Notes under the pieces: model-generated | The model's database searches: none | Seen by the model: only the letters and a program-made list of their open reading frames with translations | What the model was told of the DNA's origin: nothing | Part shown: in pieces, positions 1,104 through 36,581 of the stretch | Numbering within the stretch: position 1 is the stretch's first letter | Layout: the number at the start of each line of letters is the position of its first letter | Origin: an uncultured candidate division Zixibacteria bacterium | GTDB taxonomy: Bacteria; Zixibacteria; MSB-5A5; UBA10806 | NCBI GenBank assembly: GCA_963801605.1 | Contig: CAWDFP010000006.1 | Coordinates: forward strand, 992,001 to 1,056,000 | DNA length: 64,000 bases | Reading direction: 5' to 3' | Position numbers and translations under genes: made by a program

Positions 1104-1502
1104 ATGCTAAACAAGCGACGCGACACCAAAGGATTCACCCTAGTAGAGGTATTGGTGGTGGTAGTAATTTTGGCAATTTTGGCCGCCATCGCCGTGCCAA
1201 TTTATCTGCACTATGTTGAGAGCGCCAGGGCCGGCGAGGCTCAGGAAGCAGTTGGAGCTGTTTGGGCTGCTTCTAAGGTTTACCACGCCGAGAATGGCCG
1301 TTGGCCGACAGACACCCGTCAGTTGACCCAGCTCAACCTCGATAAAATAGTTTCGGATAGATGGCAATTCACCATTACCCCCGGATCCAATGGTATCCAG
1401 AGAATCGCCGCTACCTCTACCGGTTTGATGCCCGGCGGAGCAGGTAAGATCGTGACTTTCAATGCGCAGACTGGCAAATGGAGCGGTTACGGTACCGATT
1501 AA
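1104..1502 (+). CDS. pilA: type IVa major pilin
   Basis: Prepilin site KG|FTLVE with E5, hydrophobic helix, P22; strong RBS aaggagg; first gene of operon. Confidence 0.88.
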   Translation: MLNKRRDTKGFTLVEVLVVVVILAILAAIAVPIYLHYVESARAGEAQEAVGAVWAASKVYHAENGRWPTDTRQLTQLNLDKIVSDRWQFTITPGSNGIQRIAATSTGLMPGGAGKIVTFNAQTGKWSGYGTD

Positions 1503-1517: not shown

Positions 1518-2618
1518 TTGGATGTCGAATTGGATAATTTTGATGCAGTGAGCGGTATTTCCGCAACTGATAAATCGCTTAAAATAAACGACCTCTTGAA
1601 GTTCACCAAGGATCAGGGAGCTTCGGATTTACATCTTTCCGAAGGCTCGATCCCGATGATCCGCATAGACGGCCGTTTACATAAGCTTGATCTGCCCGGG
1701 CTGACTCGCCAGGGGATCAAGGATCTGGTTTTAAGTTCCATGACCAGCGAACAAATCAAGCGCTTTGAGCAGAGTTTCGAGGTCGACTTCGCTAAGGAGA
1801 TTGACGATAGCACCAGATTCCGCTGCAACGTCTATCGTCAAATTAACGGTATTGGCGGAGCTTTCAGAACCATTCCTGCCGATATTCGGACATTCGAGGA
1901 GCTTGGTCTTCCCGATATTATGAAGAGGTTGGCGCTTCTGGAGCGCGGATTGGTTCTTCTAACCGGTCCTACCGGTTCAGGCAAGACCACTTCGCTGGCC
2001 ACCATGGTCGACTGGATAAATCAGCACAAAGAATGCCATGTCATCACGATCGAAGATCCTGTGGAGTTTTTCCATCACAGCCGGCACAGCCTCATCAATC
2101 AGCGTGAGCTGGGAGCCTCGACCCAATCGTTCGGTAACGCCTTAAGAGCGGCACTGCGCGAGGACCCGGATGTTATTCTGGTGGGCGAGATGCGCGACCT
2201 GGAGACGGTATCGCTGGCCCTGACAGCGGCCGAAACCGGTCACCTGGTACTGGCGACTCTGCATACCTCATCGGCTACCAAAACGATCGACCGTATTCTC
2301 GATATCTTCCCATCAGAGCAGAAAGCGCAAGTGCGTTCAATGCTCTCTGAGTCGATTCAGGCGGTTGTCGCCCAATCGCTTTTGCCCCGCAAGGACAAAG
2401 GCCGGGTGGCGGCGCTCGAAGTTATGATAGCTACTGTTGCGGTGAGAAACCTGATTCGTGAAGACAAAATCTACCAGATCCCCTCAATCATTCAAGCCGG
2501 CGGTAAACAGGGAATGCAATCTCTCGATCAGCATCTTCTGACGCTGGTGGCTGAGGGCAAGATTGAGCGTTCCACGGCGGCTCAGCGCGCCGATAACCCG
2601 AAGCTCTTTTTGGATTAG
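1518..2618 (+). CDS. pilT: pilus retraction ATPase PilT
   Basis: GPTGSGKT, TIEDPVE, LREDPDVILVGEMRD, TGHLVLATLH, AVRNLIRE motif. Confidence 0.93.
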   Translation: MDVELDNFDAVSGISATDKSLKINDLLKFTKDQGASDLHLSEGSIPMIRIDGRLHKLDLPGLTRQGIKDLVLSSMTSEQIKRFEQSFEVDFAKEIDDSTRFRCNVYRQINGIGGAFRTIPADIRTFEELGLPDIMKRLALLERGLVLLTGPTGSGKTTSLATMVDWINQHKECHVITIEDPVEFFHHSRHSLINQRELGASTQSFGNALRAALREDPDVILVGEMRDLETVSLALTAAETGHLVLATLHTSSATKTIDRILDIFPSEQKAQVRSMLSESIQAVVAQSLLPRKDKGRVAALEVMIATVAVRNLIREDKIYQIPSIIQAGGKQGMQSLDQHLLTLVAEGKIERSTAAQRADNPKLFLD

Positions 2619-2624: not shown

Positions 2625-3068
2625 ATGAGATCTAAAATGAAGATTGCCCCGAACAGCGGCCGATCAAGCGGTTTTACGCTTGTTGAGCTTATGTTCGGGG
2701 TAGTCGTCGTTTCCATCGCCGTACTGGCGCTTTACCAGATGTTTATAACCGGCACGCTGATGATCACTCAAGAGTATCATCGGCGGGCGGGTCTGGAAAA
2801 AGCGCAGGCTAAGATGGAAATGGCGCGGTTTTTTAAAACCCAATTGGATACTGTGCCACGCAATTTAAGCGGGACATTTAGCGAGATGCTAATTCCGCCC
2901 GAAGAAGGCGAACATGATGGGATTGAAGCTGAATACACGATAATTGTCACTCCCAGCTCAGAACTCACCCGCAATGGATTACCGGTTTATAGCAGTATAG
3001 TCCTGAATTATACCTGGGTTGAGAAATCGGGCAAAGAACAAAAAATTGTCCTTCAAACTTATTTTTAG
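2625..3068 (+). CDS. minor pilin (PilV-like)
   Basis: SG|FTLVELM prepilin motif and hydrophobic helix. Confidence 0.8.
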   Translation: MRSKMKIAPNSGRSSGFTLVELMFGVVVVSIAVLALYQMFITGTLMITQEYHRRAGLEKAQAKMEMARFFKTQLDTVPRNLSGTFSEMLIPPEEGEHDGIEAEYTIIVTPSSELTRNGLPVYSSIVLNYTWVEKSGKEQKIVLQTYF

Positions 3069-3083: not shown

Positions 3084-3693
3084 ATGCTGATAAAAATAGC
3101 ACAAAGTCGTTTTGCGTCACGAGCCGGTGCAACTCTTGTGGAAATGGCGGCTACCTTATTTATCGCCGGTATCGCCATGAGCGGGATGGTGGTCGCATAT
3201 ACGGATGGGCTTCAGCACTGGCGTAAATCTTCTGAAAAGATGGTACTTTACAACGAGGGTGCGACAGTTTTATCTCTCATCGAGCGCTTTGTCAGGCAGT
3301 CCGATTATATCACTACTTATTCCGGCTATCGGGTTCCCAGCCACAAAATGGATTTGAAGGTTCTGGTATATACAGGGAACACGATTGCCGAACGGGATGC
3401 CCAATTTTTCTATTCCTCGTTCGACAACACGTTGCGTTGGAACAATATGACCGGCAACGATGGCGCTTTTAACGAAAGACTATTGCCGCAGTATAATTTC
3501 CGACTCGAGCGGGGCGAAAAACCCTATCTGGAGGTTCAGGAGGTTACGTTTACTCCGTTGGATACCATACCATCTCAAAGCCCGTCAACCGATGGCTGCA
3601 TTCTGGTGAAAATTGATCTTTTGTTGAACGATGCGACGTGGGGATACGTTATCATTATCGAGCATGATTGCAAGGCGAAATAAATCGGAATAA
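3084..3693 (+). CDS. minor pilin (PilW-like); probable frameshift near 3637
   Basis: AG|ATLVEM motif; ORF track ends at 3683 but the alternative frame reads RGDTLSLSSMIARRNKSE* to 3693, a typical minor-pilin C-terminus. Confidence 0.72.
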
Positions 3694-3695: not shown

Positions 3696-5153
3696 TTGAA
3701 ACTTCGCAATTCCAGCAAAAGGAGACCCAGGGTGGTACTCAAAAAATCAGAAGAAGGTAGTATCCTGGTGATGGCGGTGGTGCTTTCGTTTGTCACAATA
3801 CTTTTGGGTGTGACTTTTTTGACTTTTGCGGTAACACTCCATAACAATGTCAGCTATGAGATCGCCGACAAGCAGTCGTTGTACGATGTTAATGCTGGGT
3901 TGATGTGGGGATTGGCGGATAAGGTGGCCGGTCGTGATAGTCATGGCGTGATGCGCCCTTTTTATGACGACAATTGGATCGGCTATAGTTTTTCGGCTGA
4001 AGGCGGCCAGGATATCGATATCGGCACTCTCAATCAAATTGAAATTTATGGCCGCGGGCGTTCCGAATACGAGGGCTTGAATCTCAACAAGAGAATCTCG
4101 ATGAGTTACTCCTGGGAGACATACGCCGATTATCTTTATATTACAAGTTCTGAAAGAGACCCTCTGCGTCATGAGCCAATTTATTTTTGGACTCCTGACA
4201 CCTTGGATGGCAAAGTGCATTCCAACGATACCATCCGAATTATGGATTATGATGATCACCCGGTATTCAAAAAGCGTGTGACCAGCACTCGCAATGTGTT
4301 TTTGCCTCCCGGAAATCATGCCCGATTCGATCAGGGCAAGGGACCCCGGGCGAGAATCGTATTTCCCGATATGGCAACTGAGTTACGCAACACAGCCGGC
4401 TGGAGCACGGGTACCGGAGGTCACGATTCGTTGACGCAATTAGTTCTTTCAGACAATTATATTTATTATCGAAAATGCGGTAAGGTAAGAGTTGGGAGTG
4501 TCTGGAAAATTCATTGCGATCCGGCGGCAATAGGAGATCAATATATTTCTATTCCTGCCAGCGGCGTGATCTTCATTTATGGGAAATGCTGGGTATCAGC
4601 CTCGCGGGGAATGGTTGATATGATGGATGGCGCTTACCCGGAAAGTTCCATGGTCGATGGAATATTTACTTCCAACGGCTTCTCGGGACAGCTAACCATT
4701 GGATCGGCCGATACCATGATCATTCCCGATAATATTGTGTATAAACATGCCAGGCTGGATCATTCGGTACCGACCACCATGGATTCCTGCTCGGATGTCT
4801 TAGGATTAGTTTCAGAAAATTATATAATGATGGGTAAGCTAACGAGAGATACTCTCTACGTCAATGCAGCATTGGCCGCCGTTAGAGGTTCTATTTCGGT
4901 ACAGGATATTTATTCGAACTCCGATAACGAAAAGCAATCGCTTTTCATTTGGGGCAGCCTGGCGCAGCGCAATCGAGGTATCATCCATATAAATGATTTT
5001 TCTTCTCGGGGTTTCATTGAAAAGGATTATCACTACGATGTCAGGCTTATGGAACATCCCCCGCCGCATTACATGAAGACGGCTCAGGAGAAGGTTCGCT
5101 TTATAGAGCCTCTTTTTGGCAGCGGGGATAATACTGGCGGCGGAGGCGGTTGA
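3696..5153 (+). CDS. large PilX-type minor pilin, ComZ/DUF4900-like, copy 1
   Basis: EEG|SILVMAVV (no E5); GKVHSN; C-terminal GSLAQ..RG...KDYHYD.RL..PPPHY. Confidence 0.72.
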   Translation: MKLRNSSKRRPRVVLKKSEEGSILVMAVVLSFVTILLGVTFLTFAVTLHNNVSYEIADKQSLYDVNAGLMWGLADKVAGRDSHGVMRPFYDDNWIGYSFSAEGGQDIDIGTLNQIEIYGRGRSEYEGLNLNKRISMSYSWETYADYLYITSSERDPLRHEPIYFWTPDTLDGKVHSNDTIRIMDYDDHPVFKKRVTSTRNVFLPPGNHARFDQGKGPRARIVFPDMATELRNTAGWSTGTGGHDSLTQLVLSDNYIYYRKCGKVRVGSVWKIHCDPAAIGDQYISIPASGVIFIYGKCWVSASRGMVDMMDGAYPESSMVDGIFTSNGFSGQLTIGSADTMIIPDNIVYKHARLDHSVPTTMDSCSDVLGLVSENYIMMGKLTRDTLYVNAALAAVRGSISVQDIYSNSDNEKQSLFIWGSLAQRNRGIIHINDFSSRGFIEKDYHYDVRLMEHPPPHYMKTAQEKVRFIEPLFGSGDNTGGGGG

Positions 5154-5211
5154 GATCGGTCGCTCTACTAAAATTTATGGTTTGGCTACGGGAAACGCGA
5201 GGTTTTACGAG

Positions 5212-6636
5212 ATGATAGCAATCGGATCGAACACGGAAAAAGGAAGCATCCTGGTAATGGCGGTGGTGCTTTCGTTTGTCACAATTCTCTTAGGTGTGAC
5301 ATTTTTAACTTTTGCGGTGACGCTCCATAACAATGTCAGTTATGAGATCGCCGACAAGCAGTGTTTGTACGATGTTCATGCCGGGTTGATGTGGGGTCTG
5401 GCGGACAAAACGATGGGTCGTGATAGTCATGGTGTTATGCGCCCCTATTACGAGAACAATTGGATAGGTTATAGCTTCTCGGCCGTCGGGGGAGAGGATA
5501 TCGATATCGGCCAGCTCAGCGAGATCTCAGTTTATGGCCGCGGCCGCTCCGAATATGAAGGGCTCAATATCAGCCGCAAAATGTCGCTTAATTTCTCCTG
5601 GGAAACTTATGCCGATTATTTGTACATTTCGAATAAGGAACGAGATCCAGTCAGGGGCGATATAATCCGCTTTTGGACCCCGGATACACTGGATGGCAAA
5701 GTTCATTCCAATGACACTATTCATATTCAGGAAAGCGCGGATCGGCCGAGGTTTATGAAGCGTGTCACCAGCACCCGAAATTTTTATGATCCGCCGGGAA
5801 ACCATGCTCGTTTCGACCAAGGTAAAGGCCCCAGAGCTCCAATTTTCTTTCCGGATCAGGCAACCGAGCTGCGCAATGTGGCCGGCTGGACTACCGGGAC
5901 CGCGGGTCATGATTCGCTCACTCAGATAGTGCTTTCGGACGGATTTATTTTTTACAGAAAATGCGGTAGAATAGTAGTCAATAACGTCGTTAAAATTCAC
6001 TGCACTCCGGATTTTATGGGCGATCAGTATGTAACTATTCCAGCCAGCGGGGTTATCTTTATATACGGCAAATGCTGGGTTACGGCCCCGAGAGGCAGAA
6101 AAGACATGATGGATGGCCCATATCCAGAGAGTTCCATGACCGATGGTATTCTTGTTTCCAACGGTTTCGAAGGACAGCTCACCATTGGCTCATCGGATAC
6201 GATGATTATTCCCGATAATATTGTGTATAAACACGCCAGATCAAACTACTCGGTACCAACTACTATGGATTCCTGCCGTGATATTCTGGGGCTGGTTTCG
6301 GAAAATTATATCATGGTCGGCAGGCTGGTACGAGATACGGTTTATATTAACGCCGCTCTGGCTGCTGTGAGAGGCTCTATCTCGGTAGAGGATATTTACT
6401 GGTATAATCCGCCTCTATGGGATAATGAGAAGCAATCGCTGTTTATCTGGGGTAGCTTAGCGCAATACAATCGGGGAATAGTGCATACCAGCGAGCCCAG
6501 CGGTCACACGCGCGGTTTCGTTGAAAAAGATTACCACTACGATATCAGGCTTCAAAATAATCCTCCTCCGCATTTTATGCGTACGGCCAGAGAGAAGATT
6601 CAATATATCGAGACTCTGTTTAGCGATGGAGGCTGA
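5212..6636 (+). CDS. large PilX-type minor pilin, ComZ/DUF4900-like, copy 2
   Basis: Close paralog of 3696-5153; ATG 5212 follows gagg; EKG|SILVMAVV. Confidence 0.72.
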   Translation: MIAIGSNTEKGSILVMAVVLSFVTILLGVTFLTFAVTLHNNVSYEIADKQCLYDVHAGLMWGLADKTMGRDSHGVMRPYYENNWIGYSFSAVGGEDIDIGQLSEISVYGRGRSEYEGLNISRKMSLNFSWETYADYLYISNKERDPVRGDIIRFWTPDTLDGKVHSNDTIHIQESADRPRFMKRVTSTRNFYDPPGNHARFDQGKGPRAPIFFPDQATELRNVAGWTTGTAGHDSLTQIVLSDGFIFYRKCGRIVVNNVVKIHCTPDFMGDQYVTIPASGVIFIYGKCWVTAPRGRKDMMDGPYPESSMTDGILVSNGFEGQLTIGSSDTMIIPDNIVYKHARSNYSVPTTMDSCRDILGLVSENYIMVGRLVRDTVYINAALAAVRGSISVEDIYWYNPPLWDNEKQSLFIWGSLAQYNRGIVHTSEPSGHTRGFVEKDYHYDIRLQNNPPPHFMRTAREKIQYIETLFSDGG

Positions 6637-6694
6637 GAACGCTTCCAAGAGGTGAAGCGTTAGGGGGGTAAGCAGCGAGTTGGCGAGTTAAGGG

Positions 6695-8092
6695 ATGATG
6701 GCAGCAAAATTGAAAAAGCAGGGGGGGAGCGTACTGGTGATGGCGGTCGTGCTATCGCTGGTTACTATTTTCCTCGGCGTATCATTCCTTACTCTAGCAG
6801 TTACGTTACATAATCAAACAACTTATGAGATTGCTTCAGCGCAAGCGCTTTATGATAGTTTCGCGGGAGCCTTGAAGGGAGCTTGCGATTGGCAAAATGG
6901 CAGATATGAACGTGGCGCAATGCGCGAATTCTATAAGGATAATTTTAACGGATTCAAAATAATTGGATTTTCCAATATAGAAGGCAGCCCGCCAACGACC
7001 GCGAAGGTCATCGGTTATGGTCGCTCTACTTTTATGGAAAATGATATCACCAAAGAAGTAATTCTGAATATTGTTCCTTTCGAATCGTTCGCTGCTTTCG
7101 CTTATCTTTCCAATAGTGAACGTGATCCCATGAGGCTTGATCGCTTGCATTTTGCTACGCCCGATACATTTGATGGCAAAGTTCATTCCAATGATTCGCT
7201 CTATATATTAGGTCAAGCGGTGTTCAGAAAACGAGTAACCAGTTCCCATGCTGTGTTTACTGATAACCATGCCCGGTTCGATCAAGGCAAAGGCATTAGG
7301 CCACCGATTGAATTCCAGGGCCAATCACAGCGTATTAGATCACATTCCAAGTATGATTGGGGGACGCAGGGGCATGATTCGCTAACCCAAATAGCTCTAT
7401 CGGACAGCCTCATTTATATGAGGAAATGCGGTAAAATATTGGTTGATGGTATTTATAAAATCCACTGCTCGCCAGCCGAGCTTGGGGCAAATTCCTTTCC
7501 AATACCTTTAAACGGAGCGATCTTTGTGAAAGGCAAAGTCTGGATTTCGGCGGCCCGAGGCAGAGTAGATCGAATGGACGGAGAATTTCCGGAAGACTCC
7601 TTCACCGATGGCAATTTTATATCGCAAGGTTTTTCGGGACATTTAACATTTGGTACATCAGATACCATGATAATAGTTGATAATCTCGTTTATAAGCATT
7701 CGAGACCAAATTATACGATCCCAACCGTAATGGATTCCTGCTCTGATTTATTAGGGCTAGTTTCTGAAAACTATATAATGGTTGGCAAGCTTGTAAGCGA
7801 TACGGTTTATATTCATGCGGCGATGGCTGCACTTCGCGGGGCATTTTCAATACAAGATATTTACTATGGCCAACCACCGGGATGGGATAACGAAAAACAA
7901 TCGCTTTTTATTCGCGGATCAATAGCTCAATTTAACAGAGGCATACTGCATACAAGTGAACCGAATGGTCATCGACGAGGCTTTATTGAAAAAGAATACG
8001 ACTATGATACCAGACTAGAAAATCAAGTGCCACCATTCTATCCTATTGCTAGTGAAGGCGAAATGGTATATTTGGAATTGCACCAGAATTAG
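6695..8092 (+). CDS. large PilX-type minor pilin, ComZ/DUF4900-like, copy 3
   Basis: QGG|SVLVMAVV; same motifs (TPDTFDGKVHSND, GLVSENYI, DNEKQSLF), more diverged. Confidence 0.72.
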   Translation: MMAAKLKKQGGSVLVMAVVLSLVTIFLGVSFLTLAVTLHNQTTYEIASAQALYDSFAGALKGACDWQNGRYERGAMREFYKDNFNGFKIIGFSNIEGSPPTTAKVIGYGRSTFMENDITKEVILNIVPFESFAAFAYLSNSERDPMRLDRLHFATPDTFDGKVHSNDSLYILGQAVFRKRVTSSHAVFTDNHARFDQGKGIRPPIEFQGQSQRIRSHSKYDWGTQGHDSLTQIALSDSLIYMRKCGKILVDGIYKIHCSPAELGANSFPIPLNGAIFVKGKVWISAARGRVDRMDGEFPEDSFTDGNFISQGFSGHLTFGTSDTMIIVDNLVYKHSRPNYTIPTVMDSCSDLLGLVSENYIMVGKLVSDTVYIHAAMAALRGAFSIQDIYYGQPPGWDNEKQSLFIRGSIAQFNRGILHTSEPNGHRRGFIEKEYDYDTRLENQVPPFYPIASEGEMVYLELHQN

Positions 8093-8299: not shown

Positions 8300-9349
8300 A
8301 TGGCAAAGACGACTCTGGGTCTTGACATCGGTTCCTACGCCGTCAAGATGGTCGAAATAGATATCGAGGAAAGCAGGCGCAAGCTGAAAAGCTTCGCCAT
8401 CGTCGATGTCTATGGAGATGGCGAGGAATATGATGCCGAGGGCGCCAGCTACAGCCGCCTGTCTGCGGCCCTGAAGAGCTGCTTTAAGCAAATCAAGGTT
8501 GCTCCCAAGCGGATCAAGAATCTAAACTGCGCATTAGGCGGTACGAGTGTGGCCGTCAAGCAGATAAGATCCATTCCCTTAGGCCCCGAGGAGCTCGAAT
8601 CCTCTCTGGCCTTTGAAGCCCGCAAACATCTGCCATTAGACGATACCGAGGCCATCCTGGATTTCCAGATCGTCGACGGCGGAGCGGAATCAACGTTCAT
8701 GGATATTCTCCTGGTGGCAACCACCAAGAAGGCATTCGACAACGAGCTCAAGCTATTGGCCGATTTTGGAGCCAAACCCAAGATCATCGACGCCAACTGC
8801 ACGGCCCTGGTTAATTCTTATCTTCTTACCAGAGGCAAGCCAGAGACCGAAGCCGCCCTGGTGTTCATTGACATCGGAGCTAAATCAACCAATCTCACGA
8901 TCTTTACCGACAAGAACATTCTCTTCTCGCGTGATATCCCGATCGGCGGATACAAAATCACCGAGGACGTCAAAACGGTTCGCAAGGTTGAATATGCCGA
9001 GGCCGAGGATCTCAAAAAGAGCCGCGGTATGGGCGCTTTGCTGGAAGGCCCGGATGAAGGTCCGGCCATCAGAGTGGCGCGCCGCATGTCTGTCGATGGT
9101 CTTATCGATGAGATCAGGCGTTCGCTGCGCTATTATACCAAGGAAACCAGCGTCCGCGATTTCGACAAGATTCTCCTTTGCGGCGGCACGGCCCTGATGC
9201 CGAATCTCAATTCTCACATGGCGCAGGCCCTTAATATGACGGTTGAGATTTATAATCCGTTCGAAATGTTTACAGTTCCGCCGGGCTTTAATGCTCCGAT
9301 GGGGGCGCAACTTGCTATCGCCTGCGGATTAGCCCTGAGGGAGGATTGA
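8300..9349 (+). CDS. pilM: type IV pilus assembly protein PilM
   Basis: LGLDIGSYAVK, IDIGAKST, LCGG, ACGLALR actin-like motifs. Confidence 0.92.
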   Translation: MAKTTLGLDIGSYAVKMVEIDIEESRRKLKSFAIVDVYGDGEEYDAEGASYSRLSAALKSCFKQIKVAPKRIKNLNCALGGTSVAVKQIRSIPLGPEELESSLAFEARKHLPLDDTEAILDFQIVDGGAESTFMDILLVATTKKAFDNELKLLADFGAKPKIIDANCTALVNSYLLTRGKPETEAALVFIDIGAKSTNLTIFTDKNILFSRDIPIGGYKITEDVKTVRKVEYAEAEDLKKSRGMGALLEGPDEGPAIRVARRMSVDGLIDEIRRSLRYYTKETSVRDFDKILLCGGTALMPNLNSHMAQALNMTVEIYNPFEMFTVPPGFNAPMGAQLAIACGLALRED

Positions 9350-9927
9350 TGAGAGCACAATCGTATAAAATCAACCTCAACAAGGCCTCCAATCGTCTGG
9401 ATCAGTTTGAAAATACCAGGAAGAGACGTAAATATATTACGCTGGCCCTGTTTTTCCTTTTGCTGATCGCCGGCTCCGGTTACGTGGTATATAAGACCTC
9501 CCTGGTTCAAAAGCAGATCGACAGGCAAAAGGCGGATTTGCAGGAGATACAGAACAAGATCGAGCGGCTCGAAGCCTCGACCGAGTATCTCTCACCCGAG
9601 GATATTTTCAGATTGGCTAACGTGGCTCGCGGCCGATTGACCTGGTCGCCCAAGCTATCTGTGATAGCCGATATTCTCCCCAAGGACATTGCCATAACAG
9701 AGCTCACCTACGACAGTAATCTCAAGGTTTTTATGATCAAAGGCGTATCCAAAGTCAGATCCGATATGAAGGATCTTGATCTGGTGGTTTCGATCATTGA
9801 TTTATTGAAGGCCCAACCGGAATTCAGCAAGGATTTCGCAGAGATTAAGTTCCAAAGCTCGCAACGCGTCAAGCACAACGAACAGGAGATCGTCAAATTC
9901 GAGATCGCCTGCTTGCTGAAGGCATGA
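9349..9927 (+). CDS. pilN: PilN-family protein
   Basis: KINL motif, TM helix, coiled coil, LP..I.I..L; follows pilM. Confidence 0.8.
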   Translation: MRAQSYKINLNKASNRLDQFENTRKRRKYITLALFFLLLIAGSGYVVYKTSLVQKQIDRQKADLQEIQNKIERLEASTEYLSPEDIFRLANVARGRLTWSPKLSVIADILPKDIAITELTYDSNLKVFMIKGVSKVRSDMKDLDLVVSIIDLLKAQPEFSKDFAEIKFQSSQRVKHNEQEIVKFEIACLLKA

Positions 9928-9940
9928 GGTTGGAGGGAAA

Positions 9941-10543
9941 ATGAAAGACAATCTGATAGTTTTAATTTTATTTTTGCTGCTTCTCGCGGGCAACTACTAT
10001 TACTATAACACCGTCATCGTGCCCCAGCCGGAGGAGATCAAATCTCTTCAGTCCCAGATCGAGGAGAAGAACAAACAGCTTCTGGCCGCCCAGATTCTGG
10101 CAGAAAAGCGCGAGGGTGTCACTCAGCTTATCCAGAACAACCTCATTACGAATCCGAACGATTCGCTGGCCGAGAAAGCTTCGGTGCCGTTTTTGCGCTA
10201 TCTAACACAGCATATGGATGAGCTTGATATCAGGCTGGTATCCATTACACCAATGGAAGTAATCGGCGCCGCTGATCCGGTTTCCGCGCAGCAAGCGAAA
10301 GAATATCTGGAAGTACCCTACGAACTAAAGGTCCTGGCCAGCTATGACGAGCTGGGCAAGTTTCTGGATGTTCTGGAGAAATCACCACATCTCATTAAGG
10401 TAGCCACATTTTCAGTCAGCAATGATCTGGACCAGGCATCGTTTTCCGAAGAGATCGCGGGCAAACCAAGACAGCATAGCATCAGCCTGCAAGTAAACAC
10501 CATAGCAATATTGAAAGCGAGTTTCAGAAGTGAACCGGGATAG
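9941..10543 (+). CDS. pilO: PilO-family protein
   Basis: TM plus coiled coil; EVPYELKVLASYDELGKFL..LE motif; synteny. Confidence 0.82.
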   Translation: MKDNLIVLILFLLLLAGNYYYYNTVIVPQPEEIKSLQSQIEEKNKQLLAAQILAEKREGVTQLIQNNLITNPNDSLAEKASVPFLRYLTQHMDELDIRLVSITPMEVIGAADPVSAQQAKEYLEVPYELKVLASYDELGKFLDVLEKSPHLIKVATFSVSNDLDQASFSEEIAGKPRQHSISLQVNTIAILKASFRSEPG

Positions 10544-11099
10544 CATAATAAAAGGGCTGGCCGTCCTTTCGGCCGTCGTATTGGTCCTCTTCGTGGGATT
10601 TCTGATCGTAAGGATCGTTCTGAACGATTATCGGAAAGATCTGAAAGCAGAACCCACCGAAGCGGTAACGCTTGACGCCAATGATGCCCTCAAGGCTACC
10701 ATCGATACTCTTGAGACATCCTGGCAGTCAATCCAGGCTTTCAACTTCAGAGCCCCTCAAGATCCGCTGCACCTTGGCAGAGTCATTAAGGACTTCACTT
10801 ACAGCAAGGCCGGTTTCCAGGAGACTGAGGAGGAAGATAATATCCGACTAACCGCAACGGTGGTCGATGATAATCCGAAAGCCATTATAAAATTTAGAAA
10901 TAAAAGTTACGTGGTACAGGTCGGCGAATCGATTGAAAACATTTACAGAGTCGTCAGCATCAGCAACAAACAAGTCGTCCTGGAAACCGCCAGTGGAAGA
11001 GTCGTGCTAAACAATAAACCCGTTCAGCAGTTGGAGAGCGAACCCGGGGGCGAATCGAATTTATCCAACAGTGGTGGTACGGAAGAAGGAAACTATTAG
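10530..11099 (+). CDS. PilP/GspC-like protein
   Basis: N-terminal TM, DP motif, AII...YVVQVGE.I...RVVSI....V fold; between pilO and secretin. Confidence 0.6.
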   Translation: MNRDSIIKGLAVLSAVVLVLFVGFLIVRIVLNDYRKDLKAEPTEAVTLDANDALKATIDTLETSWQSIQAFNFRAPQDPLHLGRVIKDFTYSKAGFQETEEEDNIRLTATVVDDNPKAIIKFRNKSYVVQVGESIENIYRVVSISNKQVVLETASGRVVLNNKPVQQLESEPGGESNLSNSGGTEEGNY

Positions 11100-11132
11100 C
11101 GTGAGATATCGCGGTATATTAAGGAGGACATC

Positions 11133-12656
11133 TTGATTAAAGCGTCCGTACAGGGATTGATTATGTGCCTGGTCATAGGAATCATCCTTTGGTTCGCCCC
11201 GGCAACATTCGGACAAGTCAAATCCCAGAATGTTACTACGCCGGAACAATTGCGAAGTGGGTTGACAAAAACCGTGACACTGGATGCTGACGATGCGTTT
11301 TTGCCGTCAATTTTAAGCATTCTGGCCGATAAATCCGGGTTTAATATTGTCACAGGCCCCGGAGTCAATACTCAGGAACGCATTTCTGTACATCTGAAAG
11401 ACACCCCTATCGAAGAAGCCATTAACCTCGTGGTTCGCGCCGCCGGTCTGGCTTATGAGATTGTGGGTAATTCGATTCTGGTGGCCGATGCCGCCGCTCT
11501 CCAACAGGAGATTGGTCTTGCGGCTCATGTAATCGATCTGAAATTTGCCAAAGCTGAAGAAGTCAAAGGCCTTCTTCAGGACCTTACTACCAAAGTTGAA
11601 ATTGATACTTCCGGCAATAAAATACTGGTTTTAGCCAGCCCTAAGGTCATTGCCGAGGTCAATAAAATCGTCGAGGCCATCGATGTCGCTCCGCCACAGA
11701 TCATGCTGGAAGCACGCTTGATCGAAGTTGCCACTGACGATCTCGATAAAGTTGGAATCGATTGGGAAAAGCTGTCTAACTTCACCACGGTTCTCGCCGA
11801 ATCACCGCTGGTTAAGGACGGTCTTACAGGCGCCACCGACGGTACTTCTCGGGCGCCAAACGAAAACGACTTTGGAGGCAACCTGCCTGATCTGGGTCAA
11901 TTGCCAGAGAAATACAGCTTCGAGAAGGTCGACGGTTTCGACAACACCTTTAAGTTCTCTCGTCAGCTTTATGCATTTGATATCGCTCTCGATTTCCTCA
12001 TGAAGAGAAATAAAGCCAAAGTTCTGGCTCATACACAGCTAACGACCCTGAACAATCGCGCTGCTACCATTTTGATCGGTGAGACGCTGCGCTGGGCGGT
12101 AACCTCGCAGCAGAACGCTATCGTTGTCACCGACTCGGTAGGTATCAAGTTGCAGATTACCCCAACCATCAATTCCGACGGCTACATTACGACCAGGGTA
12201 ACACCCGAGGTTTCCTCCATTACCGAGTTGGTTTTGGGTATCTATCCGCGCAAGAAGATCAGGACTGCTTCAACCACCGTGCTGGTAAAAGACGGTCAGC
12301 AAATCTTCATAGGCGGCCTGTTCTCAGTTCAGGATGCTAAAGTTGAGTTCAAGATGCCGTTGTTTGCCAATATTCCGCTTATTGGTAAGTTATTTACACA
12401 TACTTATAACTCTGTTCAGAAGACCGATCTCCTGATAGAAATCACTCCTCGGGTAGTTCGCGAAGGAGTGAGCTACAGCGATGCTCGCAATTTAACCAGC
12501 AACGGTGTACGTGTTCTCGATGAAGGCCAAACGACTAATTTACGAGGCCTGATGCCTGAATTGGATTCGCTGGATGCCAGCAAGTCGGAAGCCCTGGACA
12601 TAAAGAAAGATCAGAAGGAAATTGTAAAACCATATGAACAAAGAACAAAGAAATAG
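11133..12656 (+). CDS. pilQ: secretin (PilQ/GspD family), short N-terminus
   Basis: QIMLEARLIEV, GIKLQITPTI, VLVKDGQ, IPLIGKLF, LLIEITPRVV; TTG start after aaggagg. Confidence 0.9.
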   Translation: MIKASVQGLIMCLVIGIILWFAPATFGQVKSQNVTTPEQLRSGLTKTVTLDADDAFLPSILSILADKSGFNIVTGPGVNTQERISVHLKDTPIEEAINLVVRAAGLAYEIVGNSILVADAAALQQEIGLAAHVIDLKFAKAEEVKGLLQDLTTKVEIDTSGNKILVLASPKVIAEVNKIVEAIDVAPPQIMLEARLIEVATDDLDKVGIDWEKLSNFTTVLAESPLVKDGLTGATDGTSRAPNENDFGGNLPDLGQLPEKYSFEKVDGFDNTFKFSRQLYAFDIALDFLMKRNKAKVLAHTQLTTLNNRAATILIGETLRWAVTSQQNAIVVTDSVGIKLQITPTINSDGYITTRVTPEVSSITELVLGIYPRKKIRTASTTVLVKDGQQIFIGGLFSVQDAKVEFKMPLFANIPLIGKLFTHTYNSVQKTDLLIEITPRVVREGVSYSDARNLTSNGVRVLDEGQTTNLRGLMPELDSLDASKSEALDIKKDQKEIVKPYEQRTKK

Positions 12657-12699
12657 AGAATCTATGTCTCTGCCAACCCACCCATATAAGGAGGTGAAC

Positions 12700-15504
12700 A
12701 TGGCAACCAACAAATTCTACAAATTGGTTGTTTATGGCTGCATAGTAATGGCGATACTAATGGCTGCCGCTATGCTATCGTGTGACAAGAGAAACGCGGT
12801 AAGCAGTCCCGAAAATGGGGGAGGTGTACCCGGAATCAGCAATATTCTCGTATCGCTGAATCCTAATCAGCTCCGACTTGCATCGAGGGATGCCATCGAC
12901 ACGGTTCAGGTTTTAATTGCCGTGGTCGATTCCAACGGCGTTGGCGTGCCGAAAGTTCAGGTACACGTCACCCGTACTCCCAGCATCGGCTTTCTAACTC
13001 AACCTGACAGCACCGATGATATGGGCCAAACCAGAGCCCTCTTCGTTGCCGAACCTGGCGTGTATGATACCACCAGAATTAAAGTCAACGTCGGTAATAT
13101 TATCCAAACAGCGCTTTTGGCAATCAGCGGGCCGACACGTTACACTCTAAATTTGACGTTCTCCCCGCCGATTCCCAAACTGATCGACCATGAGGCCGCT
13201 CCCTATACAATCACAGGCAACCTGGTAGATTCAACTCAAAGAGGAGTTTCCGGTCAGCAGGTCATTTTCGCCGTGTTAAATCAAGTAGGCAGGATTGGAT
13301 TTTCCGATCCCAACACGACAGTTCCTGTAACGAACAGCCAGGGTCTTGTGGAAGCGCTCTTCTATAATACTGAAACCGATGAAATAATGCTTCCTGATAC
13401 CGCTGTTATTCAGGCTGTTACGCGCGCTCCATCCGGATCGGGATTCTTATCCGCCGATGTGAAGGTGCCGCTCAGGCCTGTTCATAACTCATTAACTCTT
13501 CAAGCCACTCCGTCAACTATTGTTGGTGACGGCGCCAGCAGCGTTTCCATCAGGGCTTTCCTGCTCGATACCGATGGTCATGGTATCGTGGGAGACACCG
13601 TAAAATTCAGCAATCCCACCCATGATGGTTACCTGTTAGCAAACGCAATCACTGATGCTAACGGTATTGCCACCAATAATTTTACTCCGTTCGCCGGCCG
13701 CGACACGACGATAATAACTCGAATCGTAGCCGATTATAAAGCCGGTTCACCCGTACATCAGGCAATCTCTACGGTGAATGTAACAGTGTCACCGATACGT
13801 TCGATAGGGTTTATCACCCTTTCGCTTCAGAAACAGAATGTCGTTGCCAACGCAGCTGATTCCTCGGCTATTTTTATCACAGTCCAGGATTCGACTGGCG
13901 GGCTTATCGCTGACGGCACGATTATACATCTTGAGCATAGCGGCATCGGCGTTCTCTCGGCGCCGCAAGTTACAACCACTGATGGTCAGGCCAGAGCCAA
14001 GATTACAGGACCTGCCAATATCAATGGTGGCCCCAGCACTAAGGTTGATACGATAACAGTTTGGGGAAATGTGACTGACTCAACTGTCATTAAAGCGTCG
14101 GCGGTAGTCAATTATATTCCGGGCAACATTTTCCAAATGGCTTTTGTAAGCCCTGATTCAACCGTTAATCTCGTTGCTGGGTCGGGCGATACGTGCTCAG
14201 TATGGGTTCTGGCTGTCGACGTCAACGGTAATCCAGTGGCCAACGGCACTCAGATTTCATTTCGTAATACGCCAGTTATCTCTTCGTCTCTAACTCCGCA
14301 GGCCGCAGGCACATTTGACGGATATGCCAGGAGCATATATCTGGTCGGCTCGGGCACCGGCGACGATAACGTTACCGCCTGGATTACTAATCCCACGAAC
14401 GCGAATGATACTATCAGAACAGTACATCCGATCGTCTTCCGCTGCCTTTCATCATCAGCAACTACTCTTGAACTTTCAGCCAGCCAGACCAATATCGAAG
14501 TTGGCGGAACTTCAACTCAGATCATTGCCACTCTTCAGGATGCTTATGGCAATCCGCTCTCCGAGGGCTATTGGGTGAGCTTTGATATAACTGTATCGCC
14601 AGGTGCAGATCCTATTGATAAACCATCTTTCGATACGCAACAACTCACCCAACACGATACGGTCGCAACCAACATTAACGGCCAGGCTATTCTGCAGTTA
14701 TATTCCGGACGTAGAGCTGGCGCGGTCTCTATCAGAGCCTGCACTGTCCCTCTGCCGCCGGAATCGCTATTTGTTTGCAACGAGAAATCGCTAGTGACCA
14801 TCTCTTCAGGTCCGCCCGATCACATCAATTTCGCTTTTTCCAGTAATGGCGAAGCCGAACCGCCGGCACGTTTCGTGCAGGTTGGCGCCGTGGTTGGCGA
14901 CCGTTTCAGTAACGATGTTCAATATGGGACAGCGGTTTATTTCAGCTTGATTCCCAATGACCGCGCAAATATCGAGGGTGATTCTTATACTGGAGGCGCC
15001 AGGCAGTATCATCCTGATTCCACTGCCGGTGTAGCATATACCAGGATCATATATGGCTGTCTTGCCACTTTTAAAGGCATCCAGGTTATTGCCTCTTCTG
15101 CTGGTGATTCTATCGAAGTTGTTGATACTTCCGGTACTTATACACTTCCGATTTTTGAGGGTGAGATAGGTCTCATGGCCAATCCGGGAGCGCTCTGGAC
15201 TCCTAACCAAAACCAAACTTCGACTGATACGGCTTTTATTACAGCCTCACTAATTGACGGCGGTGGTTGCGCGATTGAGGGTGGAATTATCACTTTCGTC
15301 GCTCAAGTAGCAGGAGAAATTCTGCCTCCGAGTACTGATACCACCGATGTCAACGGTTTAGCAACCTGTCGGTTCGTCATTCACGGTAATCAAATACCTC
15401 GCTTGCCGGACGGCCGTGCCACGATCGATGCTGGTGTCAAGGCAACCTTGATGCAAAAGACATCGGTCTTTAGCGTGATTAATATCACCTGTTCTACTCC
15501 TTAG
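12700..15504 (+). CDS. lipoprotein with tandem bacterial Ig-like (Big_1/invasin-type) domains
   Basis: ATG 12700 after aaggaggtg; lipobox MLSC; repeated D..G.PV..G..I.F and T..NG.A motifs. Confidence 0.8.
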   Translation: MATNKFYKLVVYGCIVMAILMAAAMLSCDKRNAVSSPENGGGVPGISNILVSLNPNQLRLASRDAIDTVQVLIAVVDSNGVGVPKVQVHVTRTPSIGFLTQPDSTDDMGQTRALFVAEPGVYDTTRIKVNVGNIIQTALLAISGPTRYTLNLTFSPPIPKLIDHEAAPYTITGNLVDSTQRGVSGQQVIFAVLNQVGRIGFSDPNTTVPVTNSQGLVEALFYNTETDEIMLPDTAVIQAVTRAPSGSGFLSADVKVPLRPVHNSLTLQATPSTIVGDGASSVSIRAFLLDTDGHGIVGDTVKFSNPTHDGYLLANAITDANGIATNNFTPFAGRDTTIITRIVADYKAGSPVHQAISTVNVTVSPIRSIGFITLSLQKQNVVANAADSSAIFITVQDSTGGLIADGTIIHLEHSGIGVLSAPQVTTTDGQARAKITGPANINGGPSTKVDTITVWGNVTDSTVIKASAVVNYIPGNIFQMAFVSPDSTVNLVAGSGDTCSVWVLAVDVNGNPVANGTQISFRNTPVISSSLTPQAAGTFDGYARSIYLVGSGTGDDNVTAWITNPTNANDTIRTVHPIVFRCLSSSATTLELSASQTNIEVGGTSTQIIATLQDAYGNPLSEGYWVSFDITVSPGADPIDKPSFDTQQLTQHDTVATNINGQAILQLYSGRRAGAVSIRACTVPLPPESLFVCNEKSLVTISSGPPDHINFAFSSNGEAEPPARFVQVGAVVGDRFSNDVQYGTAVYFSLIPNDRANIEGDSYTGGARQYHPDSTAGVAYTRIIYGCLATFKGIQVIASSAGDSIEVVDTSGTYTLPIFEGEIGLMANPGALWTPNQNQTSTDTAFITASLIDGGGCAIEGGIITFVAQVAGEILPPSTDTTDVNGLATCRFVIHGNQIPRLPDGRATIDAGVKATLMQKTSVFSVINITCSTP

Positions 15505-15566: not shown

Positions 15567-15673
15567 TAAACAAGGTAACAATTTGGAGAGCAGCAAAAGA
15601 CTGATGGAAGTTCCGTGGGCCGGGTTATGAGTTCTATATCCGCGCCAGAGCACCCTTAAATAAGGAAGTGGCC

Positions 15674-18166
15674 ATGGCTACCAAAGTCTTAAGGCTGAAA
15701 ATCGCGGGAAAAATCCCCGTAATAGTAGTAGCGATTCTGGCGCTGCTCTCATGCGATAGAAGGCATGTGACAAATCCGATTAATTTCCCGGTTCAAGTGG
15801 GAAATATTTTAGTATCATTATCACCGCCGCAGGTTCACCTACCTTCTACAGAGGCTATTGACTCAGTTCAGATTATGATTGCAGTATTGGATTCTCAGGG
15901 CGTAGGTATGCCCAATATTAATGTTCATGTAACGAGGACACCAGCGATCGGTTTTGTCTCCCAACCTGATTCAACTGATTCCCTGGGTATAACGAGCGCC
16001 TTGTATATTACGGATCCCGGTATTTTTGATAGTGTATGGATAAACGCCGCTGCGGGTAATAAATCAGATTCCGCGCTTTTGGTTATTAGCCCATCGGTTA
16101 ATTCACCCCGCAAGATAGTTGTCTCTCCGCATGAGGCCAATCTTATATCCGGCGAAATCGACACGTTCACCCTGTTTGTCACGGTATTAGATTCTCTTGG
16201 CTTGCCCGTTAACGAAAGCGATACTGTTTATTTGGAAAATACGGGCAGAGCCACGTTATCTTTAAACAATGTATTAACCATAGGCGGCCGCGGCCAGGCC
16301 TTGATTACTCTAACTCCTCCCGCAAATATGCCCGGTTACATCGGACCAGATACCATATTTGTTCGGGGTTCCGATAATGAACAAAGTCTTGAGCCAGATA
16401 CTGTGATTGCTCATTTTATAGCGGGAAATTCGCTTCACAGCATTGTGGTCTCACTACAAAAACCCAATCTGGTAGCCAATGGGCTCGATACAACATCTAT
16501 AAATGCTATCGTCACCGATCCTTCGGGTAATCCGGTTCCCGATGGCACTACAATCTATTTGAATAACACCGGTGTGGGACTTCTAAGCCAAACCCAATTG
16601 ACAACGATCAATGGACAGGCCAGGGGCAAGATAACTGCTCCGATTAATATTATACATCGCCCCAATGTCGATACAGTTTTCGTTCGCAATTTTCCCGGTG
16701 ATTCGGCTAACGTGGCTGATACGGCGATTGTACATTACATACCGGGCCCAATCCATCAAATGGCGTTCATTTATCCTGAAACTACGGTGACATTAGTTGC
16801 CGGTTCGGGCGATACCTGCTCAGTCATATTAAGCGCCACTGATGCCAACGGAAATCCGGTTTCCCCTGGCACACAGATTGTTTTCGGACACACTCTTCCA
16901 TGTTCGAACTTGATTCCCCAGCCCCAGGATACCGTAAATGGATACTTCAGAAATATCTATCAGGTGGGCGATTGCACCGGCGATGATAATGTCACCGCCT
17001 GGATTGTATAACCCCGTCAACCCCAACGATACTATTCGGACTGAACACCCGGTTGTTTTTCGCTGCATCGCTCCGAGCAGGCGAGCTTGGAGTTAAGCAC
17101 ACCGAATGACAGCATCCCGGTTGGAGGTGCATCCACGATGGTGATAGCCACGGTTTTGGATGAGAATGGCAATCCGTATGGCGGCGGAAACCCATATTGG
17201 GATGGAGTATTAGTAGCTTTTGGTATTATGGATTCCACTGGCGGTGCGTCGTTTGATTCTTTGAACCAAGTGCGGTATGATACGGTATGGACGAATATTA
17301 ACAGCCAGGCGATTGTCCAACTGTTTTCTGGCCATAGGGCAGGAACTGTCTCAATCAGGGCCTGCACAGTACCCGAACCGCCGGATTCGCTTTATCGTTG
17401 CGATCGAAAGGCCGCTGGTAACCATAACTCCCGGGCCGCCGGAACAGATCATGTATTCATTTATTGGGCCACCTGAGCGACTGCCTGGTGAACCGGCAAT
17501 ATATTGTGTTGTGGCCGCGAGCATAGTTGATGAATACTTAAATCCGGTTGAATATGGCACTCCTGTGTCATTTCAGCCTGATTCCAAATGATTTAGCAAA
17601 TATTGATGGCGACTCTTATACAGGAGGCGGCAGACCTTATTATCCTGATTCGTGCGCCGGAACGGCTTATTCCGGTAATATATGGCTGCTTACTACATTT
17701 AGGTCTGTCAGAATTGTAGCCCAGTGCCGGAGATTCCGCTCAGATCGTAGATACATCAACAGTGTTTTCGCTTCCGATTTGCGAAGGGCGGATAGGTATT
17801 ATGGCCAATCCCGGCAGCCTTCATACAGCAAATGATAGTTGTGACTGCCATCAAGCGCCATACTTGGGTTGCCGTGATACATCGTTTATTACAGCAACTT
17901 TGATATGCATGGATGGATGCCCTGTTGCAGGCGGAATTGTGACTTTTACTGCCGAAGTAGCCGGGCAAATCCTTCCCTATAACGTCGATACAACCGATGT
18001 CAACGGGCAGGCGGCTTGTCGCTATATGATTCGCGGATGTGATATACCTTGCGATGATAATGGATGCAGTGTTGTAACAATTGTAAGGGCGGCTCTTGTA
18101 CAAAATCCCTCCATATTTAGTACGGTTGAGATTACCTGTTCAAGACCACCAAATAGAATGAGGTAG
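15674..18166 (+). CDS. paralogous Ig-like repeat lipoprotein, broken by at least five frameshifts (17000-17760)
   Basis: Lipobox LLSC; ORFs 15668-17011, 17087-17476, 17277-17591, 17548-17835 and 17762-18166 align collinearly with 12700-15504. Confidence 0.75.
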
Positions 18167-19872: not shown

Positions 19873-19920
19873 TATAATAGTTCAAACGGGGAGCAAATGC
19901 CCCGCAGGAGAGAGTCATAA

Positions 19921-31818: not shown

Positions 31819-32680
31819 AATAGAATATATCGCCGTAAAAGGAATACTATTTCTGGTCAACCTCATACCCTATAGAATGGCGCTTTGTTTAGGAAACATC
31901 ATCGGCTTTCTGGCCTTTTCAGTATTTAGAATCAGACGAGAGGTAACGCTTACCAACCTAAAAAAGTCTTTTGGAGATCGTTTTACAGATCGACAATATA
32001 GAAGACTTGGTCTTCGAGCCTACAATAATATCTGTAAAAGCATGATAGAGTATGGTTTGTTTCCCTCTTTTAATAAAAATAAGCTGGAAAGAATTATCAC
32101 AATTGAGGGAGCCGAGCATTTCCAGAAAATCAAAAATGCCGGGAAAGGGGCAGTGCTGGTTACCGGGCATTTTGGTAGCTGGGAACTCATGGGAGCTTAT
32201 GTTGCCCAGCATGACTGGCCTATCGATTATTTGGTGGGAGAGCAGCATAACCTTAAAGTAAATAAAATCATGAACGATCATCGCCGTATGTTCGGCATTG
32301 GGCTTATCGAATTAGGTGTGGCGGCTCGAGGAGTTATTAAGGCTGTTCGCGAGGGGCGTATGGTTGCTATGCTTTCTGATCAGGATGCGGGAAGCGACGG
32401 AGTCATCGTAGAATTTCTGGGCCGACCCGCCTCCACGCCTAAAGGACCGGCAGCATTCTCGCTCAAAACTGGCGCGCCGCTGCTTTGTGGTGTAATTATC
32501 CGTGAAGGTTTGCGTCAGCGAATAGTTGTTGAGCCGCCGATAAATATCACGCCAAGCGTCGATAAAAATGAAGATATCAGGGCCTTAACACAAGCCTATA
32601 CCTCAATTCTTAGTAAATATATAAAGGAGTACCCCGATCATTGGTTTTGGCCGCATCGGCGCTGGAAATCAACCTCATGA
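31796..32680 (+). CDS. lipid A / lysophospholipid acyltransferase (LpxL/HtrB family)
   Basis: GHFGSWE, LSDQD, FLGRPA, WFWPHRRWK. Confidence 0.88.
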   Translation: MMKKIRYEIEYIAVKGILFLVNLIPYRMALCLGNIIGFLAFSVFRIRREVTLTNLKKSFGDRFTDRQYRRLGLRAYNNICKSMIEYGLFPSFNKNKLERIITIEGAEHFQKIKNAGKGAVLVTGHFGSWELMGAYVAQHDWPIDYLVGEQHNLKVNKIMNDHRRMFGIGLIELGVAARGVIKAVREGRMVAMLSDQDAGSDGVIVEFLGRPASTPKGPAAFSLKTGAPLLCGVIIREGLRQRIVVEPPINITPSVDKNEDIRALTQAYTSILSKYIKEYPDHWFWPHRRWKSTS

Positions 32681-35001: not shown

Positions 35002-35002
35002 A

Positions 35003-36169: not shown

Positions 36170-36173
36170 TTTC

Positions 36174-36539: not shown

Positions 36540-36554
36540 TCGTTTGATTGGCTC

Positions 36555-36581
36555 TAAACATCTTCGCGGCCTTGTCGATAA
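36555..36581 (+). promoter_or_regulatory. sigma28-like promoter
   Basis: TAAA-N15-GTCGATAA versus consensus TAAA-N15-GCCGATAA. Confidence 0.5.

What the first reader, a model, noticed from the sequence alone, without database searches (positions are those of the whole stretch)
3696..8092. Three tandem large PilX-type pilins resembling the ComZ DNA receptor, with no PilY1
Seen: three paralogs of about 465-485 aa, each with an E5-less prepilin helix and a large C-terminal domain, following two minor pilins; no PilY1-like gene in the window. Known: Thermus thermophilus ComZ is a pilin-like tip protein with an inserted beta-solenoid that binds DNA. Inference: the motifs (G.VHSN, GS.AQ..RG, YD.RL...PP) resemble that family, so this pilus could use interchangeable tips for DNA uptake or adhesion. 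comEC lies about 25 kb downstream.
Basis: partly seen in the sequence, partly recalled or inferred. Interest (0 to 1): 0.7.

Follow-up and report, generated by a model that had tools for sequence, protein, structure and literature searches.

The report
Three alternative ComZ-like pilus caps
Three neighbouring genes in a type IV pilus operon of an uncultured, Zixibacteria-like bacterium encode related pilins predicted to fold like the Thermus pilus-tip protein ComZ, and they likely serve as alternative caps for one pilus, more likely for sticking to surfaces than for taking up DNA, which is a design already known from cyanobacteria.

Summary
Three intact tandem paralogs (473, 474, 465 aa; 53-75% identical) with E5-less prepilin helices follow pilV and pilW in a complete type IVa pilus operon. 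They are too divergent to be an assembly artefact and recur in independent metagenome records. An AlphaFold model (pLDDT 90) matches ComZ best (Foldseek E 3e-7; Z 15.4): a pilin fold with an inserted ice-binding-protein-like beta-solenoid. No PilY1 domain was found in 24 of 24 genomes of the order. The operon is conserved across the order with 1-3 copies, from at least four separate duplications. The DNA-uptake reading is weak: comEC belongs to a second, phylum-wide pilus system with its own large PilX pair; the proteins are acidic; the apparent counterpart of ComZ's DNA-binding K98 is not basic; and the solenoid also occurs detached from pilins on secreted proteins. Interchangeable solenoid caps replacing PilY1 are already reported in Synechocystis (PMC13759059), and this scan noted tandem ComZ-like pilins before in other genomes. 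Verdict: a new member of a known kind; ligand untested.

The parts
1104..1502 (+). major pilin pilA (G|FTLVE)
   Evidence: N_methyl over cut-off; 53-75% identical in relatives, same position
1518..2618 (+). pilT-like retraction ATPase
   Evidence: T2SSE; 69-99% identical at the same position in relatives; PilT label from my reading of the sequence and position
2625..3068 (+). PilV-like minor pilin, single copy
   Evidence: N_methyl, weak PilV model hit, alignment of 34 orthologs
3084..3693 (+). PilW-like minor pilin, single copy; frameshifted near 3635 as assembled (ORF stops at 3683; the family C-terminus is in another frame ending at 3693)
3732..5153 (+). X1: E5-less PilX/GspK-type pilin with beta-solenoid, 473 aa (ORF opens at 3696)
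   Evidence: 53% identical to the modelled X3
5212..6636 (+). X2: paralog, 474 aa, 75% identical to X1 (ORF opens at 5116)
6695..8092 (+). X3: most divergent paralog, 465 aa; modelled: helix 13-67, pilin sheet 74-127, solenoid about 130-444, last pilin strand 456-461
8300..12656 (+). pilM, pilN, pilO, pilP-like, pilQ secretin
   Evidence: Pfam and NCBIfam
12634..15504 (+). 956-aa predicted lipoprotein with Big_1 Ig-like repeats, conserved between pilQ and pilB
   Evidence: lipobox read from the sequence
15668..18166 (+). second Big_1 paralog, in frameshifted pieces; not seen in relatives' loci
18169..21174 (+). pilB extension ATPase and pilC platform of this operon
32641..35001 (+). comEC; first gene of the block DUF4388-TPR-roadblock-mglA-mglB-pilB2-pilT2-pilC2-histidine kinase of the second pilus system

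Best explanation
The three genes encode E5-less pilins predicted to carry a ComZ-like beta-solenoid, and each likely docks as the single capping subunit on the one PilV/PilW priming complex of this operon's type IVa pilus, likely replacing PilY1, so the cell would make pili with three alternative tips that probably differ in what surface they grip. Shown: gene order, three intact diverged copies under purifying selection, no PilY1 domain, a full machine (PilA, T, V, W, M, N, O, P, Q, B, C) in one operon, repeated independent duplication. Predicted: the fold. Inferred: PilD cleavage at the Gly, assembly first so that the bulky solenoid sits at the tip and cannot enter the fibre (as argued for ComZ), one cap per pilus, and an adhesive role, with DNA uptake left mainly to the second, phylum-wide pilus system.
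For: Fold: pLDDT 90, pTM 0.81; only ComZ chains pass E 0.001 in Foldseek; Z 15.4 ComZ, 11.8-13.2 ice-binding proteins over model residues 130-444, 8.5 GspK, 7.0 tapirin. Selection: dN 0.18-0.42 with synonymous sites near saturation; strain-level orthologs 90-98% identical for all three. One pilV and one pilW per locus whatever the copy number; 14 of 23 genomes have one copy, so one cap suffices. The first helix is the least variable part among strains (0.09 variable sites per column against 0.24-0.43 elsewhere) and paralogs differ in solenoid loops. Precedent: any one of three Synechocystis PilX paralogs caps the pilus (PMC13759059). For adhesion: family restricted to one order while comEC travels with the other motor and another large PilX family is in 213 of 285 genomes; the solenoid also occurs without a pilin, behind apparent signal peptides or fused to cadherin/Ig, beta-helix and secretion-tail domains.
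Against: No binding or assembly data. Four genomes of the order (88-96% complete) have this operon and comEC but no match to the second PilX family, so there this tip could be the DNA-uptake tip. In Synechocystis the three interchangeable paralogs are the competence caps. The pilin sheet, part of the presumed docking domain, is the least conserved region across the order (0.36 against about 0.70 in the solenoid core), and X3 shares only 20-46% identity with X1 there, so full interchangeability is not assured. pilW is frameshifted in this assembly. The second PilX family's fold could not be modelled.
Confidence: 0.55

Rival explanations
1. The three are redundant caps of a DNA-uptake pilus, acting as DNA receptors like ComZ or as the Com-type PilX trio of Synechocystis.
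For: ComZ is the best fold match; genome has comEC, a ComEA-like HHH_3 gene and DprA matches; comEC 21-25 kb away in 12 of 13 genomes; several Arg/Lys columns are conserved in 80% or more of 93 relatives; ComZ itself shows no positive patch on its solenoid (PMC6561018); four genomes lack a match to the other PilX family.
Against: comEC is adjacent to the second motor in 5 of 5 genomes of other families; the family has strong matches in only 25 of 285 genomes; the profile column that I map to ComZ K98 holds Lys/Arg in none of 94 aligned rows (weak alignment, numbering offset inferred); soluble parts are acidic, pI 4.6-6.7 in 88 of 93 rows that could be computed; the solenoid is reused off the pilus.
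Confidence: 0.25
2. Only one copy matters; the extra copies are dispensable birth-and-death duplicates (dosage, drift, or escape from pilus-binding phages) with no distinct ligand.
For: 14 of 23 genomes have one copy; broken or shortened extra copies exist (G259 second copy in two pieces, a 5' remnant in L117, relatives in the X3 clade lacking part or all of the pilin sheet).
Against: All three frames are intact here and in strain-level relatives, dN is far below dS, and a second-copy clade is kept across two genera.
Confidence: 0.13
3. The three assemble together into one hetero-oligomeric tip.
For: They are co-located and probably co-transcribed (58-nt gaps from the likely starts); a trimeric tip is proposed for CofB (passage in bioRxiv 2021.01.27.428410).
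Against: Copy number is 1 in most relatives and varies freely; recombinant ComZ is monomeric and its solenoid lies on the fibre axis, blocking further subunits (PMC6561018).
Confidence: 0.06
4. Assembly artefact: one gene multiplied by mis-assembly.
For: The assembly has several frameshifts (pilW, pilB2, pilT2, aroA, second Big_1 gene).
Against: 56-72% DNA identity, longest exact match 29 nt; each copy has its own 90%-identity cluster with members from other records, PilW, X1, X2 and X3 all listed with a 6497-base contig; short contigs of two other runs lie on pieces of all three.
Confidence: 0.01

Closest known systems
PilX(Com) paralogs PilX1/2/3 and PilX(EPS) of Synechocystis PCC 6803 (PMC13759059)
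   Same: Pilin fold interrupted by a triangular beta-solenoid before the last strand; similar size (482-611 aa); no PilY1; several paralogs for one core minor-pilin set; two tip families in one genome.
   Different: Here the paralogs are tandem inside a self-contained operon with its own motor and secretin, not in separate transcription units sharing one machine; no FimT/FimU gene in the operon; sequence kinship with cyanobacterial PilX not tested; function untested.
ComZ of Thermus thermophilus HB27 (PDB 6QVI; PMC6561018)
   Same: Top structural match; same insertion point; E5-less; next to PilV/PilW-like minor pilins.
   Different: 9-12% identity, rmsd 7.8 over 322 residues, shorter solenoid (about 315 against about 380 residues); three copies; the K98 position appears not basic; no evidence of DNA binding.
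GspK of the type II secretion pseudopilus tip (PDB 3CI0) and proteobacterial PilX
   Same: E5-less capping pilin of the I-J-K (V-W-X) trio; pilin domain matches at Z 8.5.
   Different: Insert is a beta-solenoid at another position, not an alpha-domain; no PilY1 partner.
Tapirins of Caldicellulosiruptor (bioRxiv 10.1101/359786)
   Same: Beta-helix proteins encoded as one or two paralogs beside a type IV pilus locus; weak fold match (Z 5.6-7.0); a model for an adhesive role.
   Different: Z under 8 may be only a common arrangement; no sign of homology or of cellulose binding here.

Membership tests
ComZ-like / solenoid PilX tip pilins | N-terminal type IV pilin helix with prepilin Gly and no Glu5 | tested here: met
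   G|SILVM, G|SILVM, G|SVLVM; helix 13-67 in the model
ComZ-like / solenoid PilX tip pilins | [quoted passage not shown] | tested here: met
   Predicted model of X3: IBP matches span 128/130-444, pilin matches span 41-465, ComZ Z 15.4, E 3e-7; X1 and X2 by 53-55% identity
ComZ-like / solenoid PilX tip pilins | Encoded with PilV- and PilW-like pilins, PilY1 absent | tested here: met
   (genome 87% complete; 0 of 24 in the order, search rang in 4 of 285)
ComZ-like / solenoid PilX tip pilins | Binds the PilV-like partner (ComZ-PilA2) | not testable with these tools
   needs a binding assay; see Tried and rejected for the one prediction job
ComZ (DNA receptor) | Binds DNA; K98 and K233 between the domains | tested here: inconclusive
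   Column mapped to K98 has no Lys/Arg in 94 rows, but the alignment is weak (E 0.026) and K233 could not be mapped; binding itself not testable
ComZ (DNA receptor) | Required for natural transformation | not testable with these tools
   uncultured organism; genomic context points to a second pilus system
Pfam DUF4900 (PF16241) | Score over the 29.4-bit cut-off | tested here: not met
   15.9, none, 22.6 bits; distant relatives do pass (9 of 23 scanned)
Pfam PilX_N (PF14341) | Score over the 25.5-bit cut-off | tested here: not met
   no hit at E 0.05; 2 of 23 distant relatives and both members of the genome's second PilX pair pass
PilY1/PilC tip adhesin | C-terminal PF05567 beta-propeller, non-pilin | tested here: not met

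The most novel reading that the evidence does not exclude
One order of Zixibacteria-like bacteria carries an extra, self-contained pilus machine whose cap gene is a birth-and-death cassette: it duplicates again and again to give alternative adhesive tips with different ligands, swaps its last slot between close relatives, and spins off pilin-sheet-less and freely secreted solenoids, making the solenoid a portable binding module with a still unknown ligand.
Probability: 0.25. Interest if true: 0.5.

Novelty: new member of a known kind. Interest (0 to 1): 0.3.

Why it matters
It extends the PilY1-free, solenoid-capped pilus tip from Thermus and cyanobacteria to an uncultured phylum and shows that such caps duplicate repeatedly. 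Three natural paralogs, plus pilin-less relatives, are a ready set for asking what these solenoids bind (DNA, polysaccharide, mineral, other cells), which is still open. The principle of interchangeable solenoid caps is already reported, so the surprise is modest.

Tried and rejected
Sequence searches of solved structures with X2 and the close-relative profile found nothing meaningful; only the deeper profile touched ComZ, E 0.026. Gene conversion of the 5' helix between X1 and X2 was suspected from 91% DNA identity in one 30-codon window but a permutation test gave p 0.07; 1 of 23 pairs fell under 0.05, an ortholog pair: rejected. No inverted repeats of note around the genes and promoter/terminator counts at chance level: no sign of an inversion switch. 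Complex prediction of X3 with PilV gave no verdict (score 0.01); not used either way. A single-sequence model of the second PilX family failed (pLDDT 34), so its fold is unconfirmed. No RNA holder was listed; the two DNA runs covered only short pieces and none spans the array or the pilW frameshift. The ESM Atlas gave feature neighbours with minority PilX_N/DUF4900 labels and no structure search. Paper searches: 'DUF4900' 1 unrelated paper; 'Zixibacteria' + 'type IV pil' 3 papers, none on this by title; 'solenoid, minor pilin, ComZ, tip' 4 listed; a PilX paralog/tandem search, 15 listed; none of the listings describes this operon.
Full report
Observation. The window holds three + strand ORFs at 3696-5153, 5116-6636 and 6695-8092. 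The likely starts are GTG 3732 (AAGGAG upstream; the 473-aa form is in the protein collection), ATG 5212 (474 aa) and ATG 6695 (465 aa). I call them X1, X2, X3. Each has a basic leader, a Gly, a hydrophobic helix and Met at +5, whereas the two small pilins before them have Glu5. The motifs GKVHSN, GS[LI]AQxNRG and YDxRLxxxxPP are in all three. Identities are 75, 53 and 55% for protein and 72, 56 and 59% for DNA, with at most 29 identical bases in a row, so these are old paralogs and not a mis-assembly. Each has its own 90%-identity cluster with members from other metagenome records; PilW, X1, X2 and X3 members are all listed with a 6497-base contig, which I take to be one contig. Contigs of two other sediment runs lie on short pieces of all three, none spanning the array. 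dN is 0.18-0.42 while synonymous sites are near saturation.

Surroundings. The genes sit in a complete type IVa pilus operon: pilA, pilT, pilV, pilW, X1-X3, pilM, N, O, P, Q, a Big_1 lipoprotein, a broken second copy of it, pilB, pilC. Named homologs are labelled Zixibacteria. The genome is 3.06 Mb, 87% complete. pilW is frameshifted near 3635: three near-identical proteins from other records are 202 aa and end in the family C-terminus, which lies in another frame here. Other frameshifts in the window, including aroA, pilB2 and pilT2, suggest assembly indels; this is inference.

Fold. AlphaFold2 with 93 sequences gave X3 a mean pLDDT of 90: helix 13-67, four long strands to 127, a beta-rich insert, and a last strand at 456-461. 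Foldseek returned three matches under E 0.001, all ComZ chains (best 3e-7, TM about 0.32, 9% identity), then ice-binding proteins. The wide search ranked ComZ first (Z 15.4, rmsd 7.8, 322 aligned), four ice-binding proteins next (Z 11.8-13.2, model 128/130-444), then GspK (8.5), Thermus PilA2 (7.5) and tapirins (about 7). Pilin matches run from residue 41 to 465, so the solenoid is inserted before the last pilin strand, as described for ComZ. By sequence the link is faint: DUF4900 is under its cut-off, PilX_N is absent, and only a 127-sequence profile reached 6QVI, at E 0.026, over the pilin part. The family is large: 3546 representatives under E 0.001; of 23 scanned, 9 pass DUF4900 and 2 pass PilX_N.

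PilY1. PF05567 found nothing in the genome (that call's controls were silent), nothing in 24 genomes of the order, and matches in 4 of 285 genomes of the phylum, 3 over the cut-off, so the search can ring.

Copy number. The close-family profile matched 28 of 285 genomes, 25 strongly, 23 of 24 in the order. In loci fetched for 22 relatives in the order plus two outside it, gene order is conserved wherever contigs reach, always with one pilV and one pilW (pilW was not detected by tblastn in three divergent loci, and pilV not in one of them). Of the 23 genomes of the order, 14 have one copy in the slot and 9 have two or more; only this genome and G240 (inferred across a contig break) have three. 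A tree of 31 genome-derived rows (left out: one broken copy, two long-branch rows from outside the order, two pilin-less copies) shows separate duplications: X3 against X1/X2, X1 against X2, a G240 triplet, a G243 pair, and a second-copy clade shared by G251, G252 and G258. One clade for all last-slot copies is rejected, p-AU 1e-9; I named that group after seeing the larger 107-row tree, which shows more pairs among metagenome proteins. Relatives in the X3 clade have lost part or all of the pilin sheet but keep helix and solenoid (P0025, P0029; P0036, P0038, P0040, P0043). A 9182-base record lists X1 and X2 at over 90% identity but a 50%-identical P0029 and no X3 (shared contig inferred from length). 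Two copies in G249 lie away from the operon, with no pilin domain and an apparent signal peptide, among secretion-tail proteins, and distant relatives join the solenoid to beta-helix and Por_Secre_tail domains or to cadherin/Ig repeats.

A second system. The genome has another minor-pilin cluster at G000:C6:346536-352109 (pilV, two pilW, two PilX_N proteins of 558 and 550 aa), a second pilMNOPQ with a FimU-like pilin on contig C7, three more major-type pilins with pilD, and a second motor in the window. This second PilX family matches 213 of 285 genomes and resembles the first over its N-terminal 159 columns (probability 97%); its fold could not be modelled. A ComEA-like gene and DprA are present elsewhere. 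Against my reading, G243, G248, G249 and G255 have the X operon and comEC but no match to the second PilX query.

DNA binding. From the 6QVI alignment I infer that chain residue K100 is the paper's K98; the matching profile column is mostly Gly and has no Lys or Arg in 94 aligned rows. The alignment is weak and K233 could not be placed. Soluble parts have pI 5.6-6.0, the family 4.6-6.7 (88 of 93 rows), the second family 4.7-4.9. Charge does not decide, since the ComZ solenoid has no positive patch either, and about 13 basic columns are conserved here alongside about 19 acidic ones.

Mechanism. By analogy with ComZ and GspK, the E5-less subunit would be assembled first with PilV and PilW, its solenoid on the fibre axis capping the pilus in place of PilY1. 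With one PilV and one PilW per operon and one copy in most relatives, three copies most simply give three alternative caps. Among strains the first helix is the most constant part and differences fall in solenoid loops; across the order the pilin sheet is the most variable part, so X3 may dock less well than X1 and X2. I put adhesion with alternative caps at 0.55, DNA uptake at 0.25, dispensable duplicates at 0.13, a joint tip at 0.06.

What is known. PMC13759059 (seen: abstract, sections 6, 7, 8, 11, 12 and passages) reports that all cyanobacterial PilX carry this solenoid, proposes that it replaces PilY1, and shows that any one of three Synechocystis PilX paralogs supports transformation while the triple mutant does not. 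PMC6561018 (seen: first two of eight parts and passages) gives the ComZ structure and DNA binding. bioRxiv 2021.01.27.428410 (passages) calls modular pilins widespread; PMC9956873 (passages) shows divergent functions of pilus paralogs; bioRxiv 10.1101/359786 (abstract and section 6) covers tapirins. Supplements were not read; ComZ Fig. S7 and the cyanobacterial S1/S2 data may bear on charge and on tandem copies. This scan holds 22 earlier findings with the same words, 8 shown, several on tandem ComZ-like pilins in other phyla; these are unchecked notes.

Verdict. Real, correctly recognised in architecture, and a new member of a known kind. What is particular is the order-restricted extra machine, the repeated duplication of its cap gene and the release of the solenoid from the pilin. 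Interest 0.3.

Noticed in passing
G000:C6:346536-352109 (L063:8537-14110): Second minor-pilin cluster: pilV, two pilW, two large PilX_N proteins (558, 550 aa, 67% identical); this family is in 213 of 285 genomes of the phylum and is also often in more than one copy. A better candidate for the competence tip.
   Followed up: partly
window 12634-15504 and 15668-18166: A 956-aa predicted lipoprotein with Big_1 Ig-like repeats sits between pilQ and pilB in relatives' loci that reach that far; role unknown (adhesin or secretin partner). A second, frameshifted copy is seen only here.
   Followed up: partly
L037:10690-12996 (G249); P0061, P0067, P0082, P0054, P0057, P0058; P0199, P0225, P0248, P0226: The solenoid occurs without a pilin domain, behind apparent signal peptides or fused to beta-helix, secretion-tail or cadherin/Ig domains; such forms arise at several places in the tree.
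   Followed up: partly
P0036, P0038, P0040, P0043 (X3 clade): Proteins that keep the prepilin-like helix but lack about 60 residues of the pilin sheet, so the helix runs straight into the solenoid.
   Followed up: partly
window 3084-3693, 40012-41451, 41769-42891, 54285-55485: Frameshifts in pilW, pilB2, pilT2 and aroA; likely assembly indels.
   Followed up: partly
window 32641-45869: comEC followed by DUF4388, TPR, roadblock, mglA- and mglB-like genes, pilB2, pilT2, pilC2 and a PAS histidine kinase; the core of the block is conserved in five other families, suggesting polarity control of the second pilus.
   Followed up: partly
G000:C6:1725015-1727283: Three tandem major-type pilin genes, two nearly identical, followed by a prepilin peptidase-like gene.
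   Followed up: no
G000:C6:12149-12943: Orphan pilW-like gene, 46% identical to the second cluster's pilW.
   Followed up: no
window 47964-50191: lexA-like repressor next to a DinB/ImuB-type (IMS) polymerase gene.
   Followed up: no
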